A stretch of DNA of 9,200 bases from a virus (lineage: Duplodnaviria > Heunggongvirae > Uroviricota > Caudoviricetes). The stretch is from the IMG/VR virus record IMGVR_UViG_2850808358_000007, positions 1 to 9,200 of that record. The stretch is one strand, 5' to 3'. The translations under genes and the position numbers were made by a program. This document shows positions 1 to 9,200 of this stretch, piece by piece; within the stretch, counting starts at the first letter, position 1, and each line of letters begins with the position of its first letter. The notes beneath the pieces are model-generated. The model did no database searches and was not told the DNA's origin. It saw only the letters and a list, made by a program, of their open reading frames with translations.

Positions 1-819
1 TTAAGCAGCCATCTGATGATATTTTTCCCTGAAGGCTGCCGGGGAGATATTCCCCAGACGAGAGTGACGACGCTGACGATTGTAGAAAATCTCAATGTAT
101 TCCCGTATTACTGAGATGGCTTCATCCCGGTTATTAAAACGATAGTGGCTCAGGCTCTCATTTTTCAGCGTTCCCCAGAAGCTTTCCATCGGAGCGTTGT
201 CGTAACAGTTACCTTTACGCGACATTGATGTTTTCAGACCAAACTGCTCCTGTATGACCCGGTAATCGTATGCGCAGTACTGTGAACCTCGATCAGAGTG
301 GTGGATTAGCCCGGCAGGTGGGCGCTGGCTCCTGAGCGCCATAAACAGGGCTTTACCTGTCAGCTCTTTTGTCATGCGCTCTCCCATGGCGTAGCCGACA
401 ATTTCGCACGTATAAACATCTTTGATGCCAGCGAGGTACAACCATCCCTCCTGTGTGGCAACATACGTCAGGTCCGCCACCCAGACCTGATTTGGTGCTG
501 TAGGAGCGAACGTCTGGTTCAGCAGATTTGGCGCAACTGGCAGATTGTGGTTCGGGTTCGTAGTCGCTCTGAACTTGCGTTTCTGCTTACAGCGTAGCCT
601 TAGCTCCTTACGAAGACGTGCCAGTCGGTCACGACCAACGATGATGCCATTCTCTGCCAGCTCCGTCTGGAGCCGCCGGGTTCCATATGTTTCGCGAGTG
701 CGGATATGTGCCACCTTAATCTCCAGTTTTAGCCGCTCATCACTTTGTTTTCTGTCTGAGGGTTCATGCTGTACCCGGTTGTAATAACCGCTCCTGGATA
801 CACCAAATACCTGACACAT
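1..819 (-). CDS. IS3-family transposase OrfB (DDE catalytic domain)
   Basis: 272-aa ORF with integrase-like DDE-region motifs (HSDRGSQY, CYDNAPMESFWGTLK). It is in the -1 frame relative to orfA, and that frame is open with no stop from the slippery site (~906) down to the ATG at 819. Confidence 0.85.
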   Translation of the reverse strand: MCQVFGVSRSGYYNRVQHEPSDRKQSDERLKLEIKVAHIRTRETYGTRRLQTELAENGIIVGRDRLARLRKELRLRCKQKRKFRATTNPNHNLPVAPNLLNQTFAPTAPNQVWVADLTYVATQEGWLYLAGIKDVYTCEIVGYAMGERMTKELTGKALFMALRSQRPPAGLIHHSDRGSQYCAYDYRVIQEQFGLKTSMSRKGNCYDNAPMESFWGTLKNESLSHYRFNNRDEAISVIREYIEIFYNRQRRHSRLGNISPAAFREKYHQMAA

Positions 820-1157
820 CGCTTCAATGGGAAATTGTTGTCGCCATTGTTCGATTAACGCGTATTTTTCAGCGACTCCTGTGCAAAATACGCTGTTGCT
901 TTTTTTAATATATCTCGCTCAAGGCGAGCTTCATTTAACGCCTTACGCAGTTGCAGAATTTCAGATTCCAGTTCAGCCACCGTGCGGGAACCAGGAGTAC
1001 CGAGCCCTTTTCTGGCGGCGGTAACCCATTGTCCTAAAGTGCCTTCAGGAAGGGATAATCGGGAAGCGCCTTCACTGATCGAAAGTTGATTTTCAAGAAC
1101 CGTTCTGACAGCTTCGGCTTTGAACTCTTTAGAGTAACGTTGGGTTTTTCTGCTCAT
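1..1157 (-). CDS. OrfAB transframe transposase (predicted -1 programmed frameshift product)
   Basis: Slippery heptamer A_AAA_AAA (minus strand, 906..900) sits in the orfA zero frame at codons Leu-Lys-Lys. After a -1 slip the frame reads ...KKSNSVFCTGVAEKYALIEQWRQQFPIEAMCQVFG... without a stop into orfB (translated by hand from the sequence). Confidence 0.65.
855..1157 (-). CDS. IS3-family transposase OrfA (DNA-binding N-terminal part)
   Basis: 100-aa ORF beginning MSRKTQRYSKEFKAEAV, with a C-terminal leucine-heptad region (LESEILQLRKALNEARLERDILKKATAYFA) typical of IS3-family OrfA. A GGAG Shine-Dalgarno lies about 8 nt upstream on the minus strand (reverse complement of 1162-1175). Confidence 0.85.
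   Translation of the reverse strand: MSRKTQRYSKEFKAEAVRTVLENQLSISEGASRLSLPEGTLGQWVTAARKGLGTPGSRTVAELESEILQLRKALNEARLERDILKKATAYFAQESLKNTR
900..906 (-). other. -1 programmed ribosomal frameshift slippery site (A AAA AAA G) of the IS transposase
   Basis: A run of 7 T on the plus strand at 900-906, i.e. 7 A on the minus strand, positioned in the orfA frame as X_XXY_YYZ. Confidence 0.6.
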
Positions 1158-1221
1158 TATTAGCTCCTTCTGATGCCATTCTATTTCAGGAAGGAGTGTC
1201 CGTTAAACTCAGGCTACCTCA

Positions 1222-2175
1222 GTCGGCATGGTCTGCACGGCCAGCGATGCGGATGCGGAAACCTTTCCCCTCAATAAACCTGTGCTGATTACCAATGTGC
1301 AGAGCGCAATTGCAAAGGCCGGTAAAAAAGGCACGCTGGCGGCGTCGCTGCAGGCCATCGCCGACCAGTCAAAACCGGTCACCGTTGTTGTGCGCGTGGA
1401 AGACGGCACCGGCGACGACGAGGAAACGAAACTTGCGCAGACCGTTTCCAATATCATCGGCACCACCGACGAAAACGGTCAGTACACCGGACTGAAAGCC
1501 CTGCTGGCGGCGGAGTCAGTAACCGGTGTTAAACCGCGTATTCTCGGCGTGCCGGGACTGGACACCAAAGAGGTGGCTGTTGCACTGGCATCAGTCTGTC
1601 AGAAGCTGCGCGCTTTCGGGTATATCAGCGCATGGGGCTGTAAGACCATTTCCGAGGTGAAAGCCTACCGCCAGAATTTCAGCCAGCGTGAGCTGATGGT
1701 CATCTGGCCGGATTTCCTCGCATGGGATACGGTCACCAGTACCACCGCCACCGCGTATGCCACCGCCCGTGCGCTGGGTCTGCGTGCTAAAATCGACCAG
1801 GAGCAGGGCTGGCATAAAACGTTGTCCAACGTCGGGGTAAATGGTGTTACCGGCATCAGCGCATCTGTATTCTGGGATTTGCAGGAGTCCGGTACCGATG
1901 CTGACCTGCTTAACGAGTCAGGCGTCACTACGCTGATTCGCGACATCGTTGACGGCATCAATGCCAAATTTCGTGAGCTGAAAACAAACGGCTATATCGT
2001 GGATGCGACCTGCTGGTTCAGCGAAGAATCCAACGATGCGGAAACTCTTAAGGCCGGAAAACTGTATATCGACTACGACTATACCCCGGTTCCTCCTCTT
2101 GAAAACCTGACCCTGCGCCAGCGTATTACCGATAAATACCTGGCAAATCTGGTCACCTCGGTTAACAGCAATTAA
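1222..2175 (+). pseudogene. FI: P2-like tail sheath protein FI, 5'-truncated by the IS insertion (first in-frame ATG at 1228)
   Basis: The reading frame is open from the IS junction, and the protein ([27 protein letters not shown]...[12 protein letters not shown]) matches my recollection of P2 gpFI. About 317 codons remain versus the ~396 aa I recall for P2 FI. There is no native N-terminus or ribosome-binding site, and the gene sits immediately upstream of FII as in P2. Confidence 0.8.
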
Positions 2176-2187
2176 GGAGCCTGACCG

Positions 2188-2706
2188 ATGGCAATGCCGC
2201 GCAAACTCAAGTTAATGAACGTCTTTCTGAACGGCTACAGCTATCAGGGCGTTGCAAAGTCCGTCACGCTGCCAAAACTGACCCGTAAACTCGAAAACTA
2301 TCGCGGTGCGGGGATGAACGGAAGCGCACCGGTAGACCTCGGCCTTGATGACGATGCGCTGTCAATGGAGTGGTCGCTCGGGGGCTTCCCGGATTCGGTT
2401 ATCTGGGAGCTTTACGCCGCAACCGGTGTGGATGCCGTGCCGATTCGTTTTGCTGGCTCTTACCAGCGTGACGATACCGGCGAAACGGTGGCCGTAGAGG
2501 TGGTCATGCGTGGCCGTCAGAAAGAAATCGACACCGGCGAGGGTAAACAGGGAGAAGACACCGAGTCGAAAATCTCCGTGGTCTGCACCTATTTCCGGCT
2601 GACGATGGACGGTAAGGAGCTGGTCGAAATCGACACCATCAACATGATTGAGAAGGTGAACGGCGTCGACCGGCTGGAGCAACACCGCCGCAATATCGGC
2701 CTGTAA
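2188..2706 (+). CDS. FII: P2-like tail tube protein FII
   Basis: 172-aa ORF, the length I recall for P2 gpFII. AGGAG lies 8 nt upstream of the ATG. Position between FI and E is syntenic with P2. Confidence 0.88.
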   Translation: MAMPRKLKLMNVFLNGYSYQGVAKSVTLPKLTRKLENYRGAGMNGSAPVDLGLDDDALSMEWSLGGFPDSVIWELYAATGVDAVPIRFAGSYQRDDTGETVAVEVVMRGRQKEIDTGEGKQGEDTESKISVVCTYFRLTMDGKELVEIDTINMIEKVNGVDRLEQHRRNIGL

Positions 2707-2762
2707 TTTTCATCCGGTCAGCCTGCCTGACCGGTTAACACCGATTCAGAAGTGAGAAAACC

Positions 2763-3038
2763 ATGAACAAAGAAAATGTGATTACCCTGGACAATCCGGT
2801 CAAGCGTGGTGAGCAGGTTATCGAACAGGTCACGCTGATGAAACCCAGTGCGGGGACGCTGCGCGGTGTCAGTCTGGCTGCGGTCGCAAACTCAGAAGTC
2901 GATGCACTGATTAAGGTGCTGCCGCGCATGACGGCACCGATGCTGACCGAGCAGGAAGTCGCCGCGCTGGAACTGCCTGACCTTGTGGCGCTGGCTGGTA
3001 AGGTGGTCGGTTTTTTGTCGCCGAACTCGGTGCAGTAA
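2763..3038 (+). CDS. E: P2-like tail assembly chaperone gpE
   Basis: 91-aa ORF, the length I recall for P2 gpE, with the slippery heptamer T_TTT_TTG near its 3' end. Confidence 0.85.
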   Translation: MNKENVITLDNPVKRGEQVIEQVTLMKPSAGTLRGVSLAAVANSEVDALIKVLPRMTAPMLTEQEVAALELPDLVALAGKVVGFLSPNSVQ

Positions 3039-3190
3039 CGTTCCCGAAAAATCTGTCGGTCGATGACCTGATGGCGGATGTGGCAGTGATATTTCACTGG
3101 CCGCCATCAGAACTGTATCCCATGAGCCTGACCGAACTCATCACATGGCGCGAAAAGGCGCTCCGGCGAAGCGGAAACACAAATGAGTAA
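2763..3190 (+). CDS. E': gpE+E' transframe tail chaperone (predicted -1 frameshift at 3011-3017)
   Basis: T_TTT_TTG at 3011-3017 is in the E zero frame (codons Gly-Phe-Leu). By hand translation the -1 frame is then open to a TAA at 3188-3190, giving ~142 aa, the length I recall for P2 E+E'. Confidence 0.65.
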
Positions 3191-5609
3191 CAATGTAAAA
3201 TTACAGGTATTGCTCAGGGCTGTTGACCAGGCATCCCGCCCGTTTAAATCCATCCGCACAGCGAGTAAGTCGCTGTCGGGGATATCCGGGAAACACAAAA
3301 ATCACTGCGCGAGCTGAACGGTCACGCATCCCGTATTGAGGGATTCCGCAAGACCAGTGCACAGCTCGCCGTGACTGGTCATGCACTTGAAAAGGCACGG
3401 CAGGAGGCCGAAGCCCTTGCCACACAGTTTAAAAACACCGAACGTCCGACCCGTGCTCAGGCGAAAGTGCTGGAATCAGCAAAGCGAGCGGCGGAGGACT
3501 TACAGGCGAAATATAACCGCCTGACGGATTCCGTTAAACGCCAGCAGCGGGAACTGGCCGCTGTGGGAATTAATACCCGCAATCTTGCACATGATGAGCA
3601 GGGACTGAAAAACCGTATCAGTGAAACCACCGCACAGCTTAACCGACAACGTGACGCGCTGGCGCGTGTCAGTGCGCAACAGGCAAAACTTAACGCAGTA
3701 AAACAGCGTTATCAGGCAGGCAAGGAACTGGCCGGAAATATGGCCTCAGTGGGCGCTGCCGGTGTGGGGATTGCTGCTGCGGGAACAATGGCCGGAGTTA
3801 AGCTACTGATGCCCGGTTATGAGTTTGCGCAGAAAAACTCAGAATTGCAGGCCGTGCTCGGAGTGGCAAAAGACTCTGCCGAAATGGCTGCACTACGCAA
3901 GCAGGCGCGCCAGCTCGGCGGACGATGCAGCCGGTGCGCAGATTATCATTGCGAAAGCGGGTGGAGATGCTGCGGCTATTCAGGCGGCAACGCCGGTCAC
4001 GCTGAATATGGCACTGGCGAATCAGCGGACGATGGAAGAAAACGCGCAACTGTTGCTGGGGACTAAGGCATCCTTTCAACTGTCAAATGATGATGTCAGC
4101 CATGTGGGCGACGTGTTGTCAGCAACGATGAATAAGTCGGCGGCTGATTTTCAGGGACTCAGTGATGCACTGACTTACCTCGGTCCGGTTGCGAGGACGG
4201 CAGGTGTAAGTCTTGAGCAGGCAGCGGCCATGACAGGTGTGCTGCATGACAATAACATCAGGGGGTCAATGGCGGGTACGGGTAGTAGTGCCGTTGTCAC
4301 CCGATTACAGGCTCCGACAGGGAAAGCATGGGAAGCACTAAAAGAGCTTGGCGTTAAAACCTCGGACAAAAAGGGAAATATGCGTCCGTTGTTCACCATT
4401 CTGAAAGAGATTCAGGTCAGCTTTGATAAACACAAGCTGGGAACGTCTCAGAAGGGGGAATACCTTAAAACCATTTTTGGTGAGGAAGCCCTGAAATCAG
4501 CGAACGTTTTACTGGCAGCGGCTGCAAGCGGAAAACTGGATAAGCTGACCGCCACGCTGAAAGCCTCGGACGGTAAAACGGAAGAGCTGGTTAAAATCAT
4601 GCAGGACAACCTCGGCGGTGACTTTAAGGAGTTTCAGTCCGCTTATGAGGCGGTGGGGACTGACCTGTTTGACCAGCAGGAAGGCGCACTGCGTAATCTC
4701 ACGCAGACGGCCACAAAGTATGTGTTAAAACTCGACGGCTGGATCCAGAAAAACAAATCACTGGCGTCAACCATCGGCATCATTGTCGGTGGTGCACTGG
4801 CGCTGACTGGTGTCATCGGTGCCATTGGCCTCGTAGCCTGGCCGGTTATCACCGGCATCAATGCCATTATCGCGGCAGCAGGCGCAATGGGGGCAATCTT
4901 CACGACGGTTGGCAGTGCTGTTATGACGGCCATCGGGGCGATTAGCTGGCCGGTTGTGGCCGTGGTGGCTGCAATTGTCGCCGGGGCGTTGCTTATCCGT
5001 AAATACTGGGAGCCTGTCAGCGCATTCTTTGGCGGTGTGGTGGAAGGGCTGAAAGCGGCATTTGCGCCGGTGGGGGAACTGTTCGCGCCACTTAAGCCGG
5101 TGTTTGACTGGCTGGGTGAAAAGTTACAGGCCGCGTGGCAGTGGTTTAAAAACCTGATTGCCCCCGTCAAAGCCACCCAGGACACCCTGAACCGTTGCCG
5201 TGATACGGGCGTCATGTTCGGGCAGGCACTGGCTGACGCGCTGATGCTGCCGCTTAATGCGTTCAACAAACTGCGCAGCGGCATTGACTGGGTACTGGAA
5301 AAACTCGGTGTTATCAACAAAGAGTCAGACACACTTGACCAGACCGCCGCCAGAACTCATGCCGCCACGTATGGCAACGGTGGTTATATTCCGGCGACCA
5401 GCTCTTATGCAGGCTATCAGGCTTATCAGCCGGTCACGGTACCGGCTGGTCGCTCTTATGTGGACCAGAGTAAAAACGAATATCACATCAGCCTGACGGG
5501 TGGTACTGCGCCGGGGACACAGCTTGACCGCCAGTTACAGGATGCGCTCGAAAAATACGAGCGGGATAAACGTGCGCGCGCCCGTGCCAGCATGATGCAT
5601 GACGGTTAA
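3183..5609 (+). pseudogene. T: P2-like tail tape measure protein gpT, disrupted by two reading-frame changes
   Basis: Three colinear frame segments: ATG at 3183 (MSNNVKLQVLLRAVDQ...) stops at 3315-3317; a second frame is open from 3269 to 4066; a third runs 3819-5609. All read as continuous tape-measure-like sequence (coiled-coil N-terminus, Gly/Ala/Ile-rich hydrophobic segment, C-terminus ...YERDKRARARASMMHDG). The 2427-nt span is close to the 815 codons I recall for P2 gpT. Confidence 0.7.
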
Positions 5610-5623
5610 GGAGGTGACGAAAA

Positions 5624-6103
5624 GTGATGCTCGCGTTAGGTATGTTTGTTTTTATGCGCCAGACGCTGCCACACCAGACCATGCAGCGTGAATCAGATTA
5701 TCGCTGGCCGTCAAATTCCCGTATCGGTAAACGGGATGCCTACCAGTTTCTCGGTGTGGGTGAGGAAAACATGACGCTTGCCGGCGTGCTTTATCCCGAA
5801 CTGACCGGCGGGAAGCTGACGATGACCACGCTCAGGCTGATGGCAGAGGAAGGCCGGGCGTGGCCGTTGCTGGATGGCACTGGCATGATTTACGGCATGT
5901 ATATCGTCAGCAAGGTGAGTGAAACAGGGAGTATTTTCTTTGCAGACGGCACACCCCGGAAAATTGATTTTACGCTGTCACTCACCCGCGTTGATGAATC
6001 ACTGGCCGCGCTTTATGGCGATATCGGTAAACAGGCGGAATCGCTCATCGGTAAGGCTGGCAGTATGGCGACCAGATTCACGGGTATGACGGGGGCGGGA
6101 TAA
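5624..6103 (+). CDS. U: P2-like tail protein gpU
   Basis: 159-aa ORF, the length I recall for P2 gpU, starting at GTG 5624 followed by ATG 5627. GGAGGT at 5610-5615 is 8 nt upstream. Its stop overlaps the D start (TAATG). Confidence 0.85.
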   Translation: MMLALGMFVFMRQTLPHQTMQRESDYRWPSNSRIGKRDAYQFLGVGEENMTLAGVLYPELTGGKLTMTTLRLMAEEGRAWPLLDGTGMIYGMYIVSKVSETGSIFFADGTPRKIDFTLSLTRVDESLAALYGDIGKQAESLIGKAGSMATRFTGMTGAG

Positions 6104-7266
6104 TGCTGGATGCGCTGACATTTGATGCAGGCAGTACGCTGACGCCGGATTACATGCTGATGCTCGACAGCAGGGATATTACCGGCAATATCAGCGACCG
6201 TCTGATGAGCATGACCCTGACGGATAACCGGGGCTTTGAGGCTGACCAGCTTGATATTGAACTGAACGACGCCGACGGGCAGGTAGGGCTACCGGTTCGT
6301 GGCGCTGTCCTGACGGTGTATATCGGCTGGAAAGGTTTTGCCCTGGTATGCAAAGGGAAATTTACCGTTGATGAGGTTGAACACCGGGGCGCACCGGATG
6401 TGGTCACCATCCGCGCCCGGAGTGCAGATTTTCGCGGGACGCTCAATTCCCGCCGTGAAGGCTCCTGGCATGACACCACGCTCGGTGCGATTGTTGAGGC
6501 GATAGCCTCCCGTAACAGGCTGGAAGCCAGTGTCGCGCCGTCACTGGCAGGAATTAAAATCCCGCACATCGACCAGTCGCAGGAGTCTGATGCGAAATTC
6601 CTGACCCGCCTTGCTGAACGCAACGGCGGTGAGGTGTCGGTAAAAATGGGAAAACTGTTGTTTCTCAAAGCGGGGCAGGGGGTGACGGCCAGCGGTAAAA
6701 AAATCCCGCAGATTACCATCACCCGCAGCGACGGCGACCGTCATCATTTTGCGATTGCTGACCGTGGAGCTTACACCGGCGTAACGGCAAAGTGGTTACA
6801 CACCAAAGACCCGAAGCCGCAAAAGCAGAAGGTAAAACTGAAACGCAAAAAGAAAGAAAAACACCTGCGCGCACTGGAGCACCCGAAAGCGAAACCGGTC
6901 ACGCAGAAGAAAGCGCCAAAAGTACCGGAAGCGCGCGAAGGTGAATACATGGCCGGTGAAGCTGACAACGTTTTTGCCCTGACTACGGTATATGCCACGA
7001 AAGCACAGGCCATGCGCGCCGCTCAGGCGAAGTGGGATAAACTGCAACGGGGCGTTGCGGAGTTCTCCATCAGCCTTGCCACTGGTCGTGCTGATATTTA
7101 CACGGAAACACCGGTCAGAGTGTCAGGCTTTAAGCGCGTCATAGACGAGCAGGACTGGACAATCACTAAGGTGACACATTTTCTGAATAATAGCGGCTTC
7201 ACGACGTCCTTGGAGCTTGAGGTCAGGCTTTCTGATGTGGAGTACGAAACAGAAGATGATGAGTAA
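6103..7266 (+). CDS. D: P2-like tail protein gpD
   Basis: 387-aa ORF, the length I recall for P2 gpD. Start is translationally coupled to the U stop, and position is syntenic with P2. It contains an internal Lys-rich linker. Confidence 0.88.
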   Translation: MLDALTFDAGSTLTPDYMLMLDSRDITGNISDRLMSMTLTDNRGFEADQLDIELNDADGQVGLPVRGAVLTVYIGWKGFALVCKGKFTVDEVEHRGAPDVVTIRARSADFRGTLNSRREGSWHDTTLGAIVEAIASRNRLEASVAPSLAGIKIPHIDQSQESDAKFLTRLAERNGGEVSVKMGKLLFLKAGQGVTASGKKIPQITITRSDGDRHHFAIADRGAYTGVTAKWLHTKDPKPQKQKVKLKRKKKEKHLRALEHPKAKPVTQKKAPKVPEAREGEYMAGEADNVFALTTVYATKAQAMRAAQAKWDKLQRGVAEFSISLATGRADIYTETPVRVSGFKRVIDEQDWTITKVTHFLNNSGFTTSLELEVRLSDVEYETEDDE

Positions 7267-7347
7267 TGTTTTTATTTTATCTGTTTGTTTTATAAGGATA
7301 AATTAACTAAAATGGCACCGTCAACAAAACCGGAAGAGGTGCTCGCG

Positions 7348-7566
7348 ATGTTTCATTGTCCTTTATGCCAGCATGCCGCACATGCGCGTACAAGCCGCTA
7401 TATCACTGACACGACAAAAGAGCGTTATCACCAGTGTCAGAACGTGAATTGCAGCGCCACGTTCATCACTTATGAGTCGGTACAGCGATACATCGTGAAG
7501 CCGGGAGAAGTCCACGCCGTAAGACCGCACCCGTTGCCGTCAGGGCAGCAAATTATGTGGATGTAA
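7348..7566 (+). CDS. ogr: Ogr, zinc-finger late gene transcription activator
   Basis: 72-aa product MFHCPLCQHAAHARTSRYITDTTKERYHQCQNVNCSATF... with Cys at 4, 7, 30 and 35 (a Cys4 zinc finger), matching my recollection of P2 Ogr and E. coli K-12 OgrK. GAGG lies ~8 nt upstream of this ATG. The tracked ORF starts further upstream at 7285, but that extension has no ribosome-binding site support. Confidence 0.9.
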   Translation: MFHCPLCQHAAHARTSRYITDTTKERYHQCQNVNCSATFITYESVQRYIVKPGEVHAVRPHPLPSGQQIMWM

Positions 7567-7838: not shown

Positions 7839-9200
7839 TCACTTACCGTGGGGGTTACGCGTGGTTTCCCCGGAGAAATTACGCATTAGCAGCGCGTAAT
7901 TTAGCTCAAGATCCTGCGGGACCGGGAGCCACACAGTATAACCATCGCCTGGTGCGACCGGCATAGCTTCGCCTTTGGCGTTTTCCATGTGCTCAAGGGT
8001 AAAGTTAATGTTGCCTTGCGGCGTCATCAGCTCAAGACTGTCGCCAACGGAGAATTTATTTTTCACCGCTACCGCTGCGAGGTCCCCCTTGCGCTCACCG
8101 GTAAACTCACCAACAAACTGCTGGCGGTCAGAAACTGAATAACCGTATTCGTAGTTCTGATAATCGTCGTGAGTATGACGACGCAGGAAACCTTCGGTAT
8201 AGCCACGATGCGCCAGACCTTCCAGAGTTTCCAGCAGGCTGGTATCGAACGGTTTTCCCGCAGCGGCGTCATCGATAGCTTTGCGGTAAACCTGTGCGGT
8301 GCGTGCGCAATAGTAGAAAGATTTGGTACGACCTTCGATTTTCAGCGAATGCACGCCCATTTTGGTCAGGCGTTCTACATGGGCGATGGCGCGCAGATCT
8401 TTCGAGTTCATGATGTAAGTGCCGTGCTCATCTTCAAACGCGGTCATATACTCGCCAGGACGCTGGGCCTCTTCGATCATAAACACTTTGTCGGTTGGCG
8501 CGCCGATACCCAGCGTCGGCTCAACATTTTGCACCGGAATCGGCTCGTACTTGTGTACGATGTTGCCAACGTCATCTTCTTTCCCTTCCTGGACGTTGTA
8601 CTCCCAGCGGCAGGCGTTGGTGCAGGTACCCTGGTTCGGATCGCGCTTGTTGATATAGCCAGAGAGCAGGCAGCGACCGGAGTAGGCCATGCACAGTGCG
8701 CCGTGAACGAAGATCTCGATCTCCATATCCGGCACCTGATTGCGGATCTCTTCAATCTCTTCAAGCGACAGCTCGCGAGAGAGGATCACGCGGGTCAGGC
8801 CCATTTGCTGCCAGAATTTCACCGTCGCCCAGTTTACGGCGTTAGCCTGCACCGAGAGGTGGATCGGCATTTCAGGGAAGTGCTCACGCACCAGCATAAT
8901 CAGCCCTGGATCGGACATAATCAGCGCATCCGGCCCCATTTCCACCACCGGTTTCAGGTCACAGATAAAGGTTTTCAGCTTGGCGTTGTGCGGTGCAATG
9001 TTGACCACGACATAAAACTTTTTCCCCAGCGCGTGGGCTTCATTGATGCCGAGCTGAAGATTTTCGTGGTTGAATTCGTTGTTGCGCACACGTAGGGAGT
9101 AACGCGGCTGGCCCGCATAAACAGCATCTGCGCCATAAGCGAAAGCGTAACGCATATTTTTCAGCGTTCCCGCCGGGGAAAGGAGTTCCGGTTTAAACAT
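7839..9200 (-). CDS. yegQ: Peptidase U32 family protein YegQ (TrhP, linked to tRNA U34 hydroxylation)
   Basis: 453-aa ORF, MFKPELLSPAGTLKNMRYAFAYGADAVYAGQPRYSLRVRNNEFNHENL..., matching the length and sequence I recall for E. coli YegQ. The start codon is at the last base of the window. A convergent ogrK lies next to yegQ in E. coli K-12. Confidence 0.9.
   Translation of the reverse strand: MFKPELLSPAGTLKNMRYAFAYGADAVYAGQPRYSLRVRNNEFNHENLQLGINEAHALGKKFYVVVNIAPHNAKLKTFICDLKPVVEMGPDALIMSDPGLIMLVREHFPEMPIHLSVQANAVNWATVKFWQQMGLTRVILSRELSLEEIEEIRNQVPDMEIEIFVHGALCMAYSGRCLLSGYINKRDPNQGTCTNACRWEYNVQEGKEDDVGNIVHKYEPIPVQNVEPTLGIGAPTDKVFMIEEAQRPGEYMTAFEDEHGTYIMNSKDLRAIAHVERLTKMGVHSLKIEGRTKSFYYCARTAQVYRKAIDDAAAGKPFDTSLLETLEGLAHRGYTEGFLRRHTHDDYQNYEYGYSVSDRQQFVGEFTGERKGDLAAVAVKNKFSVGDSLELMTPQGNINFTLEHMENAKGEAMPVAPGDGYTVWLPVPQDLELNYALLMRNFSGETTRNPHGK

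What the first reader, a model, noticed from the sequence alone, without database searches (positions are those of the whole stretch)
3011..3190. Conserved E/E' programmed -1 frameshift, with E' terminating inside the start of T
T_TTT_TTG at 3011-3017 is in the correct register of the E frame. The -1 frame then runs open to TAA at 3188-3190, which overlaps the T start codon at 3183-3185 (AATGAGTAA). This reproduces the tail-chaperone frameshift of P2-like and lambda-like (G/GT) phages, indicating this part of the operon has kept its translational architecture despite decay elsewhere.
Basis: partly seen in the sequence, partly recalled or inferred. Interest (0 to 1): 0.4.

Follow-up and report, generated by a model that had tools for sequence, protein, structure and literature searches.

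The report
Phage P2 tail-chaperone frameshift site, intact
This is an intact copy of the already well-known programmed -1 ribosomal frameshift site of phage P2 tail genes E/E+E', sitting in a broken P2 prophage remnant; it is ordinary and probably no longer used.

Summary
E is 2763-3038. TTTTTTG at 3011-3017 is in X_XXY_YYZ register. The -1 frame is open to TAA 3188-3190, which overlaps the T start ATG 3183-3185.

The 91-aa E and the 142-aa frameshift fusion are residue-for-residue identical to phage P2 gpE and gpE+E' (NP_046780.1/O64312). All 11 nucleotide differences from P2 are synonymous.

In 16 diverse relatives, an in-register slippery heptamer (13x TTTTTTG) precedes a 51-71-codon -1 ORF carrying the GpE motif. 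Among 73 P2-type variants the heptamer is invariant, and third-codon-position polymorphism switches from the E frame to the -1 frame at the slip site.

The window comes from CP026877.1 and holds a P2 remnant next to yegQ:
- IS600 replaces everything left of FI codon 28, including promoter pF.
- FI has a 156-nt deletion.
- T is broken by 1-nt and 20-nt deletions.

Survival of E/E' needs no selection: the chance of no lesion in 428 nt is about 0.8, and the substitution pattern shows the decay is recent. The site is therefore a sequence-competent but probably silent fossil. Novelty: none. Interest: low.

The parts
2763..3038 (+). Gene E (tail assembly chaperone gpE, 91 aa), the zero-frame product
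   Evidence: ORF. Pfam Phage_TAC_7 at 1.5e-12. The exact sequence equals TAP_BPP2.
3011..3017 (+). Slippery heptamer T_TTT_TTG, the site of the programmed -1 ribosomal frameshift
   Evidence: In register. Corresponds to the P2 heptamer, next to the site RefSeq marks as the -1 frameshift. Invariant in 73 of 73 P2-type variants. TTTTTTG is present at the equivalent place in 13 of 16 diverse relatives; the other 3 have other canonical heptamers.
3017..3190 (+). E' extension: 57 codons read in the -1 frame after the slip, ending at TAA 3188-3190. With 2763-3017 it forms the 142-aa gpE+E'.
   Evidence: Translation. Pfam PF06528 at 1.2e-21 and PHROG 1756 covering fusion residues 82-142. The fusion equals NP_046780.1/O64312. 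Polymorphism falls on third positions of the -1 frame (13 of 19, p=0.002).
3183..3190 (+). ATGAGTAA: the T start codon (3183-3185) overlaps the E' stop (3188-3190)
   Evidence: The same overlap occurs in P2, 186, PSP3 and YenM_06.16-2. A short overlap (ATGA-type where read) occurs in five others.
3183..5609 (+). Gene T (tape measure), a pseudogene. It has a 1-nt deletion (G5 to G4) after 3277 and a 20-nt deletion after 3920.
   Evidence: Alignment to P2 and to an intact E. coli prophage. ORFs are split into 3183-3317, 3371-4066 and 3819-5609. Pfam PhageMin_Tail hits the last piece.
2188..2706 (+). Gene FII (tail tube), intact, immediately upstream of E
   Evidence: Pfam Phage_tube at 2.3e-60. 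P2 annotation.
1222..2175 (+). Gene FI (tail sheath) remnant. It lacks its first 81 nt and promoter pF, and has an internal 156-nt in-frame deletion after 1929.
   Evidence: Pfam sheath domains.
1..1221 (-). IS600 (partial in the window), which replaces the rest of the prophage
   Evidence: 99.9% identical to copies annotated as IS3-like element IS600. rve transposase domains.
5624..7566 (+). Genes U (5624-6103), D (6103-7266) and ogr (7348-7566), all with intact reading frames
   Evidence: ORFs. ogr translation. Gene calls on the source contig.
7839..9200 (-). Host gene yegQ/trhP, marking the right-hand prophage/chromosome border
   Evidence: Annotation of matching E. coli genomes. 98.4% identity.

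Best explanation
The feature is the phage P2 gpE / gpE+E' tail-assembly-chaperone recoding cassette, preserved base-perfect in a defective P2-type prophage remnant.

**Mechanism** (established for P2, inferred here from sequence identity):
1. Ribosomes translating E reach GG-U UUU UUG, with tRNA-Phe on UUU (3012-3014) in the P site and tRNA-Leu on UUG (3015-3017) in the A site.
2. Most ribosomes continue for 7 more codons (3018-3038, including the stop) and release the 91-aa gpE.
3. A minority slip back one base, with both tRNAs re-pairing on UUU/UUU. They read GUC (3017-3019, Val) next and add 57 residues, giving the 142-aa gpE+E'.
4. Those ribosomes stop at TAA 3188-3190, 3 nt after the ATG of the tape-measure gene T. 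This overlap probably couples T initiation to E' translation (inference).
5. The two proteins share the N-terminal domain; only the rare fusion carries the conserved GpE domain. This would set a fixed E:E+E' ratio for tail assembly, as with lambda G/GT.

**State in this genome.** The signal is intact but most likely a silent fossil. Promoter pF and the start of FI are replaced by IS600, T is frameshifted, and all head, baseplate and fibre genes are gone.
For: **Shown here**
- Register and open frame.
- 98% DNA identity to P2. All 11 differences in the 428 nt are synonymous in the frame being used.
- E and the Val-junction fusion are exact matches to P2 TAP_BPP2 and TAPFS_BPP2/NP_046780.1.
- Pfam Phage_TAC_7 plus Phage_P2_GpE. 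PHROG 1756 spans the slip site.
- Of 418 phage records matching the fusion, 401 cover at least 80% of it, in two pieces, as expected for a product encoded in two reading frames.
- In 16 of 16 diverse relatives (31-74% E identity), an in-register heptamer lies 15-66 nt before the E stop, followed by a 51-71-codon -1 ORF with the DD.MADIA.IFHWPP...WRE.A..RSG motif.
- Four of those relatives have no ATG, GTG or TTG in the -1 frame between the slip site and the motif.
- Among 73 P2-type variants the heptamer is invariant. Polymorphism periodicity switches from the E frame (42 of 54 at third positions) to the -1 frame (13 of 19) at the slip site.

**From the literature**
- In P2 the -1 shift at TTTTTTG yields the 91-aa E and the 142-aa E+E' (PMC3091744, citing Christie 2002 and Xu 2004).
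- The RefSeq note reads 'essential tail protein; -1 frameshift'.

**Fossil status**
- IS600 junction and loss of pF.
- Deletions in FI and T.
- The same lesions occur in two independent assemblies.
Against: - No expression or frameshift measurement exists for this locus; function is inferred from identity with P2.
- U_UU.U_UU.G is not among the most efficient heptamers in E. coli (PMC4066793).
- No conserved downstream stimulatory structure was found.
- Whether the remnant is transcribed at all is unknown. pF is deleted and the IS600 transposase gene points away from the operon.
- The original experimental paper (Christie 2002) could not be read here.
Confidence: 0.93

Rival explanations
1. 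E' is a separate small gene translated by its own initiation, from ATG 3071 (39 aa) or from the GTG that overlaps the E stop in P2. On this view it is not a frameshift fusion.
For: - Annotation pipelines call it that way. PGAP lists a 'GpE family phage tail protein' at L003 4970-5125, and there are 39-aa entries with about 200 cluster members.
- The Pfam PF06528 model starts exactly at that Met.
Against: - The P2 GTG (equivalent to 3035) is GTA in this window and in P24E6b.
- The Met is replaced by Ala, Trp or Ile in RSA1, MAR, Alfacinha3 and PHL101. These four have no start codon anywhere between the slip site and the motif.
- The -1 frame is open back to the heptamer in all 16 relatives. In several it opens only 0-9 nt upstream of it.
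- PHROG 1756 homology extends across the slip site.
- I saw no good Shine-Dalgarno sequence before 3071 on reading the sequence.
- P2 RefSeq and the literature describe a fusion (PMC3091744).
Confidence: 0.03
2. The frame change is made at the RNA level. RNA polymerase would slip on the T6 run and produce some transcripts with one extra U, whose standard translation gives E+E'.
For: - The site is a homopolymer run.
- A weak hairpin-plus-T-run 'terminator-like' pattern covers 2990-3011 plus the T run. It is at chance level: 1 found versus 0.9 expected.
Against: - Six T's is shorter than the runs known to give efficient transcriptional slippage (general knowledge; PMC5009743 reviews these).
- Relatives use non-homopolymeric tandem-slippage heptamers at the same position: AAATTTT and GGGAAAG. 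These fit tRNA re-pairing, not polymerase slippage.
- The strict X_XXY_YYZ register is conserved in 16 of 16 relatives. Transcriptional slippage does not need a register.
Confidence: 0.03
3. The E/E' cassette, together with the intact FII, U, D and ogr, is being retained by selection because the host has co-opted it. On this view its intactness in a decayed prophage is meaningful.
For: - E/E', FII, U, D and ogr all keep open frames while FI and T are damaged.
- The same remnant is seen in three assemblies.
Against: - The chance of no lesion in 428 nt is 0.76-0.82 at the observed lesion density.
- The syn:nonsyn ratio of window-specific changes (59:12) is the same as in intact phages, so the divergence predates inactivation.
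- Only 2 window-specific changes fall in E/E', which gives no power to detect post-decay selection.
- Promoter pF is deleted, and the chaperone's client (T) is broken.
Confidence: 0.03
4. A chance heptamer and a chance open -1 frame, with no biological meaning.
For: A single in-register heptamer and a 57-codon open frame are individually not rare.
Against: - Identity to P2 E+E'.
- Pfam hit at E=1e-21.
- Conservation across 16 genera-level relatives.
- Switch of codon periodicity at the slip site.
Confidence: 0.005

Closest known systems
Bacteriophage P2 genes E and E+E' (programmed -1 frameshift in the FETUD tail operon; Christie et al. 2002, J Bacteriol 184:6522; RefSeq NC_001895 P2p25/P2p26)
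   Same: Everything that can be read from sequence is the same:
- proteins 100% identical;
- same TTTTTTG, with the same 18 nt to the E stop;
- same 57-codon extension;
- same ATGAGTAA overlap with T;
- same flanking genes FII and T.
   Different: - 11 synonymous nucleotide differences.
- The E stop is TAA instead of TGA. This removes the GTG that some annotators use as an E' start.
- The copy lies in a defective remnant lacking promoter pF and with T disrupted.
Phage 186 orf51/orf52 (gene H), PSP3 gp23/gp23.5 and other Peduoviridae E/E' homologues (e.g. Burkholderia KS5/KS14/KL3, PMC3091744)
   Same: - Same heptamer TTTTTTG in most.
- Same position relative to the E stop.
- Same conserved E' motif.
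- E' stop overlapping the tape-measure start.
   Different: - E proteins are 31-74% identical.
- E is longer at the N-terminus in many.
- Three relatives use other heptamers: AAATTTT, TTTTTTC and GGGAAAG.
Phage lambda G/GT tail assembly chaperone frameshift (Levin 1993; Xu, Hendrix & Duda 2004, 2013, 2014; reviewed in PMC5009743)
   Same: - Same logic: a gene between the major tail/tube gene and the tape measure.
- A low-level -1 slip near its 3' end makes a rare C-terminally extended fusion.
- Neither product is reported in lambda virions; the same is assumed for P2.
   Different: - No detectable sequence homology; Pfam gives only Phage_TAC_7 and Phage_P2_GpE.
- Lambda uses G_GGA_AAG.
- P2 is a contractile-tail phage.

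Membership tests
P2-type gpE / gpE+E' tail assembly chaperone with programmed -1 frameshift | Zero-frame ORF homologous to P2 gpE (Phage_TAC_7) | tested here: met
   Pfam at 1.5e-12. Exact match to TAP_BPP2.
P2-type gpE / gpE+E' tail assembly chaperone with programmed -1 frameshift | Located between the tail tube gene and the tape measure gene | tested here: met
   FII (Phage_tube) is at 2188-2706. T (PhageMin_Tail) starts at 3183.
P2-type gpE / gpE+E' tail assembly chaperone with programmed -1 frameshift | Slippery heptamer X_XXY_YYZ in the E register near the 3' end of E | tested here: met
   TTTTTTG at 3011-3017, in register, 18 nt before the E stop.
P2-type gpE / gpE+E' tail assembly chaperone with programmed -1 frameshift | The -1 frame is open from the heptamer and encodes the GpE (PF06528) domain | tested here: met
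   57 codons. PF06528 at 1.2e-21. PHROG 1756.
P2-type gpE / gpE+E' tail assembly chaperone with programmed -1 frameshift | E' stop overlaps or abuts the tape-measure start codon | tested here: met
   ATGAGTAA at 3183-3190.
P2-type gpE / gpE+E' tail assembly chaperone with programmed -1 frameshift | Ribosomes actually shift and both E and E+E' are made | not testable with these tools
   Established for P2, whose sequence is identical from 13 nt before the heptamer to 19 nt after it (RefSeq note; PMC3091744). No expression data exist for this locus.
P2-type gpE / gpE+E' tail assembly chaperone with programmed -1 frameshift | Expressed as part of an Ogr-activated late operon from promoter pF, with functional partners | tested here: not met
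   Homology to P2 starts at FI nucleotide 82. The pF start site and activator site (P2 17555-17628) are replaced by IS600. T is frameshifted. This concerns function in this host, not the identity of the element.
Lambda gpG/gpGT family | Sequence homology to lambda gpG/gpT | tested here: not met
   The Pfam scan returns only Phage_TAC_7 and Phage_P2_GpE. It is an analogue, not a family member.
Lambda gpG/gpGT family | [quoted passage not shown] | tested here: met
   Lambda description in PMC5009743.

The most novel reading that the evidence does not exclude
The P2-type frameshift might be tuned by two elements that, as far as I could find, have not been described.

1. **A strong Shine-Dalgarno-like TAAGGTGGT (2999-3007), 3 nt upstream of the heptamer.** It is the strongest anti-SD binder in the whole E gene. 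An equivalent element is the gene-wide strongest in 6 of the 14 non-P2 relatives scored.
2. **A 10-bp hairpin at 3068-3077/3101-3110, 50 nt downstream.** It is kept 10 of 10 in the five enteric lineages (P2 type, 186, PSP3, YenM_06.16-2, Kp4886-2).

My tests weaken both. The SD-like signal is mostly explained by the conserved K/E-V-V residues (synonymous resampling, combined p=0.036, sequences not independent). The hairpin is lost in distant relatives and is broken in 5 of 73 P2-type variants.
Probability: 0.05. Interest if true: 0.3.

Novelty: already known. Interest (0 to 1): 0.06.

Why it matters
It matters little beyond correct annotation. E' here should be annotated as the -1 frameshift extension of E (join 2763..3017, 3017..3190). 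It should not be left out or annotated as a free-standing 39-51-aa 'GpE family' ORF, as pipelines commonly do. The locus is also a clean example of a recoding signal outliving the operon it served. The survival is a matter of small target size and recent decay, not evidence of selection.

Tried and rejected
1. **Downstream stimulatory RNA structure.**
   - The 93 nt after the heptamer fold at -35.1 kcal/mol, z=-2.66.
   - A 13-genome alignment gives 0 conserved pairs.
   - The main stem starts 50 nt downstream, too far for a classical stimulator. It is lost in distant relatives and broken in 5 of 73 close variants.
   - Rejected as a conserved stimulator.
2. **Upstream SD-like stimulator.** It looked striking at first, but synonymous-codon resampling shows it is mostly a by-product of the amino-acid sequence. 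Left as a weak lead.
3. **Rfam.** No family matched; the best E-value was 0.31.
4. **PDB.** No solved relative.
5. **Genome-contig scan for the T-deletion junction.** 0 hits. The source was found instead by exact-protein look-up.
6. **Reading Christie et al. 2002** (by DOI and as PMC135442). The paper is not held, so I relied on PMC3091744, PMC5009743 and the RefSeq annotation.
7. **Related-loci searches.** The 15-sequence alignment was too divergent to seed the search. The 6-sequence alignment returned only 98-100% identical P2-type loci. I used those for the polymorphism test rather than for distant sampling.
8. **Apparent truncation of ogr.** This was a coordinate slip of my own, caused by T being 21 nt shorter. 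ogr is intact at 7348-7566.

Full report
**1. The observation**

The sequence was read directly and checked by script.
- Gene E is an ATG-started ORF at 2763-3038 (91 aa).
- TTTTTTG occupies 3011-3017. Because (3011-2763) mod 3 = 2, the codons are GG[T] TTT TTG, which is the X_XXY_YYZ register needed for tandem -1 tRNA slippage. It is the only such in-register heptamer in E.
- The -1 frame carries TAA at 2999-3001. It is then open from 3002, and 57 sense codons run from 3017 to 3187 before TAA 3188-3190.
- The T start codon is ATG 3183-3185, so the E' stop lies 3 nt inside T (ATGAGTAA).

**2. What it is**

- Window 2700-3250 is 95-99% identical to 74 phage records. All are P2-type Peduoviruses.
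- Aligned with the P2 reference (NC_001895), the region shows no indels. RefSeq annotates that region as E, and as E+E' ('shares amino terminus with gpE; -1 frameshift; essential tail protein').
- Of the 428 nt from the E start to the E' stop, 11 differ from P2. All 11 are synonymous in the frame in use.
- An exact-sequence look-up shows that the 91-aa E equals TAP_BPP2. The 142-aa fusion made by re-reading G3017 (junction ...GFL-VAE...) equals NP_046780.1/O64312, 'Tail assembly protein E'' of P2. A variant with Phe at the junction is not on record.
- Pfam places Phage_TAC_7 (tail assembly chaperone) on E and PF06528 Phage_P2_GpE (1.2e-21) on the extension. PHROG 1756 matches fusion residues 82-142, which runs across the slip site.
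- Lynch et al. 2010 (PMC3091744) summarise the experimental work of Christie et al. 2002 and Xu et al. 2004: in P2 the -1 shift occurs at TTTTTTG and gives the 91-aa E and the 142-aa E+E'.

**3. Independent comparative tests**

*Breadth in phage records.* A tblastn search with the fusion found 418 phage records. Of these, 401 cover at least 80% of it, and the listed matches are in two pieces, as expected for a product encoded in two reading frames.

*Sixteen diverse relatives.* I fetched 16 relatives whose E proteins are 31-74% identical to this one. Their hosts span Escherichia, Salmonella, Yersinia, Klebsiella, Burkholderia, Ralstonia, Pseudomonas, Aeromonas, Vibrio, Acidovorax and Mannheimia. 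Results:
- All 16 have an in-register slippery heptamer 15-66 nt before the E stop.
- Thirteen have TTTTTTG. The others have AAATTTT, TTTTTTC and GGGAAAG.
- In all 16 the -1 frame is open for 51-71 codons and carries the motif DD.MADIA.IFHWPP.E...L.EL..WRE.A..RSG.
- In several, the -1 frame opens only 0-9 nt before the heptamer.
- In nine of the 14 relatives with an annotated tape-measure start, the E' stop overlaps that start. In one more it directly abuts it.
- In RSA1, MAR, Alfacinha3 and PHL101 there is no ATG, GTG or TTG in the -1 frame between the slip site and the motif. Independent initiation cannot explain the E' domain there.

*Start codons in this window.* The GTG that overlaps the E stop in P2, which PGAP uses to call a separate 'GpE family' ORF, is GTA here.

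*Seventy-three P2-type variants.* These comprise 80 IMG/VR loci plus three references and the window.
- The heptamer is invariant and the whole architecture is intact in 73 of 73.
- Upstream of the heptamer, variable sites fall on third positions of the E frame (42 of 54, p=3e-11).
- Downstream of the E stop, they fall on third positions of the -1 frame (13 of 19, p=0.002; only 4 fall on E-frame third positions).
- Protein-level selection therefore changes frame at the slip site.

**4. Mechanism**

Shown here: the sequence requirements for tandem slippage are present and are identical to P2.

Inferred from P2 and general knowledge of -1 programmed frameshifting (PMC4066793, PMC5009743):
1. With tRNA-Phe on UUU (3012-3014) and tRNA-Leu on UUG (3015-3017), a minority of ribosomes shift back one base and continue with GUC (Val).
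2. The majority terminate seven codons later.
3. U_UU.U_UU.G is not among the most efficient E. coli motifs. This fits a low fusion:chaperone ratio.

Possible stimulators:
- No conserved downstream structure exists, in agreement with PMC3091744. Rfam has no matching family.
- An SD-like TAAGGTGGT lies 3 nt upstream and is the best anti-SD binder in the gene. Synonymous resampling shows this is largely a consequence of the conserved K/E-V-V residues.

The overlap of the E' stop with the T start suggests translational coupling of T to the rare -1 ribosomes. This is my inference and was not tested.

**5. Genomic context and 'decay'**

- The window is part of CP026877.1 (assembly GCA_002950035.1).
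- It is a P2-type prophage remnant at the yegQ/trhP border.
- IS600 (99.9% identity) abuts FI nucleotide 82. On the other side of IS600 are the host genes yegR and yegS. Everything from the heads to the fibres, promoter pF and its Ogr-binding site are therefore gone.
- FI also carries a 156-nt in-frame deletion between two copies of ACGCTGATTCGC.
- T carries a 1-nt deletion (G5 to G4, after 3277) and a 20-nt deletion between CTCGGC repeats (after 3920).
- FII, E/E', U, D and ogr keep open frames.
- Two independent short-read assemblies share the IS600 junction, the 315-aa FI protein (hence the FI deletion), the 20-nt T deletion and an identical E/E'. Both have G5, so the 1-nt deletion is strain-specific or a homopolymer sequencing error. 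T is broken either way.

**6. Is the preservation meaningful?**

- With 3-4 lesions in the 6345-nt remnant, a 428-nt segment stays untouched with probability 0.76-0.82.
- Window-specific codon changes are 59 synonymous to 12 non-synonymous. This is indistinguishable from three intact phages (35:11, 48:10, 61:11). Almost all divergence therefore accrued under purifying selection, before a recent inactivation.
- Intactness of E/E' needs no special explanation. With no pF promoter and a broken client protein, the site is best seen as a competent but idle fossil.

**7. Comparison, novelty and verdict**

- The element is a member of the P2 E/E+E' family on every sequence-testable criterion. It is in fact identical at the protein level.
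- It is a functional analogue of lambda G/GT, not a detectable homologue.
- Nothing about it is new.
- The only residual leads are the SD-like element and the distal hairpin. They are weak and concern P2 biology in general, not this locus.
- Interest is low (0.06). Novelty: already known.

Noticed in passing
window 1-1221 (- strand); L020 2671-5930: IS600 (99.9% identity) directly abuts FI nucleotide 82. On the source contig the host genes yegR and yegS lie on its other side. The IS therefore marks the deletion of the whole left part of the P2 prophage, including promoter pF. From memory, not tested here: E. coli K-12 carries a more reduced remnant (ogrK, yegZ) at this same yegQ-yegR locus.
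   Followed up: partly
window 1918-1941: FI has a 156-nt in-frame deletion. Intact phages have two direct copies of ACGCTGATTCGC here; the window keeps one. This is a classic repeat-mediated deletion. The remaining 315-aa ORF still hits the sheath domains.
   Followed up: yes
window 3278-3281: The 1-nt deletion that first breaks T is a G5 to G4 change in a homopolymer. Two independent short-read assemblies of the same remnant (ERR200316, SRR1811640) have G5. It is either strain-specific or a sequencing error in CP026877.1. T remains broken by the 20-nt deletion either way.
   Followed up: yes
window 3913-3925: The 20-nt deletion in T lies between two CTCGGC repeats and is shared by all three assemblies. 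Together with the 1-nt deletion it restores the frame (21 nt), so in this assembly the codons from 3278 to 3920 are out of phase with the T start.
   Followed up: yes
window 2999-3007: TAAGGTGGT (8 of 9 matches to the Shine-Dalgarno consensus) lies 3 nt upstream of the slippery heptamer. It is the strongest anti-SD binder in gene E. An equivalent element is the gene-wide strongest in 6 of the 14 non-P2 relatives scored. Synonymous resampling (combined p=0.036, sequences not independent) shows it is mostly explained by the conserved K/E-V-V residues. The spacing is shorter than the roughly 10 nt known (from memory) to stimulate dnaX-type -1 shifts.
   Followed up: partly
window 3068-3110: A perfect 10-bp stem (CTGATGGCGG / CCGCCATCAG) lies inside the most conserved part of E', 50 nt after the slip site. 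It is kept 10 of 10 in 186, PSP3, YenM_06.16-2 and Kp4886-2, with one U-A to U-G change. It is lost in distant relatives and carries a mismatch in 5 of 73 P2-type variants. Function, if any, is unknown.
   Followed up: partly
window 2714-2734: An intergenic palindrome lies between FII and E: CCGGTCAG-CCTGC-CTGACCGG. It has no T-run after it. Phage 186 annotates a 'partial terminator tI' at the equivalent place (L004 275-301). It may lower expression of E-T-U-D relative to sheath and tube.
   Followed up: no
L001 6872-6991; L003 4970-5125; several of L006-L018: Public annotations mostly list E' as a free-standing 29-51-aa ORF ('GpE family phage tail protein' or 'hypothetical protein') instead of a frameshift fusion. 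The Pfam PF06528 model begins exactly at the internal Met used by those calls. This is a systematic annotation artefact.
   Followed up: partly
window 5624-5626: The start codon of gene U is GTG here, but ATG in P2, P24E6b and the E. coli SBF45 prophage. This is a window-lineage-specific change. U also carries 2 more lineage-specific conservative amino-acid changes (V to I, I to V).
   Followed up: no
window 2990-3016: The terminator scan flags a weak G-U-rich hairpin (2990-3011) followed by the T-run, which is the slippery sequence itself. It is at chance level: 1 found versus 0.9 expected.
   Followed up: no
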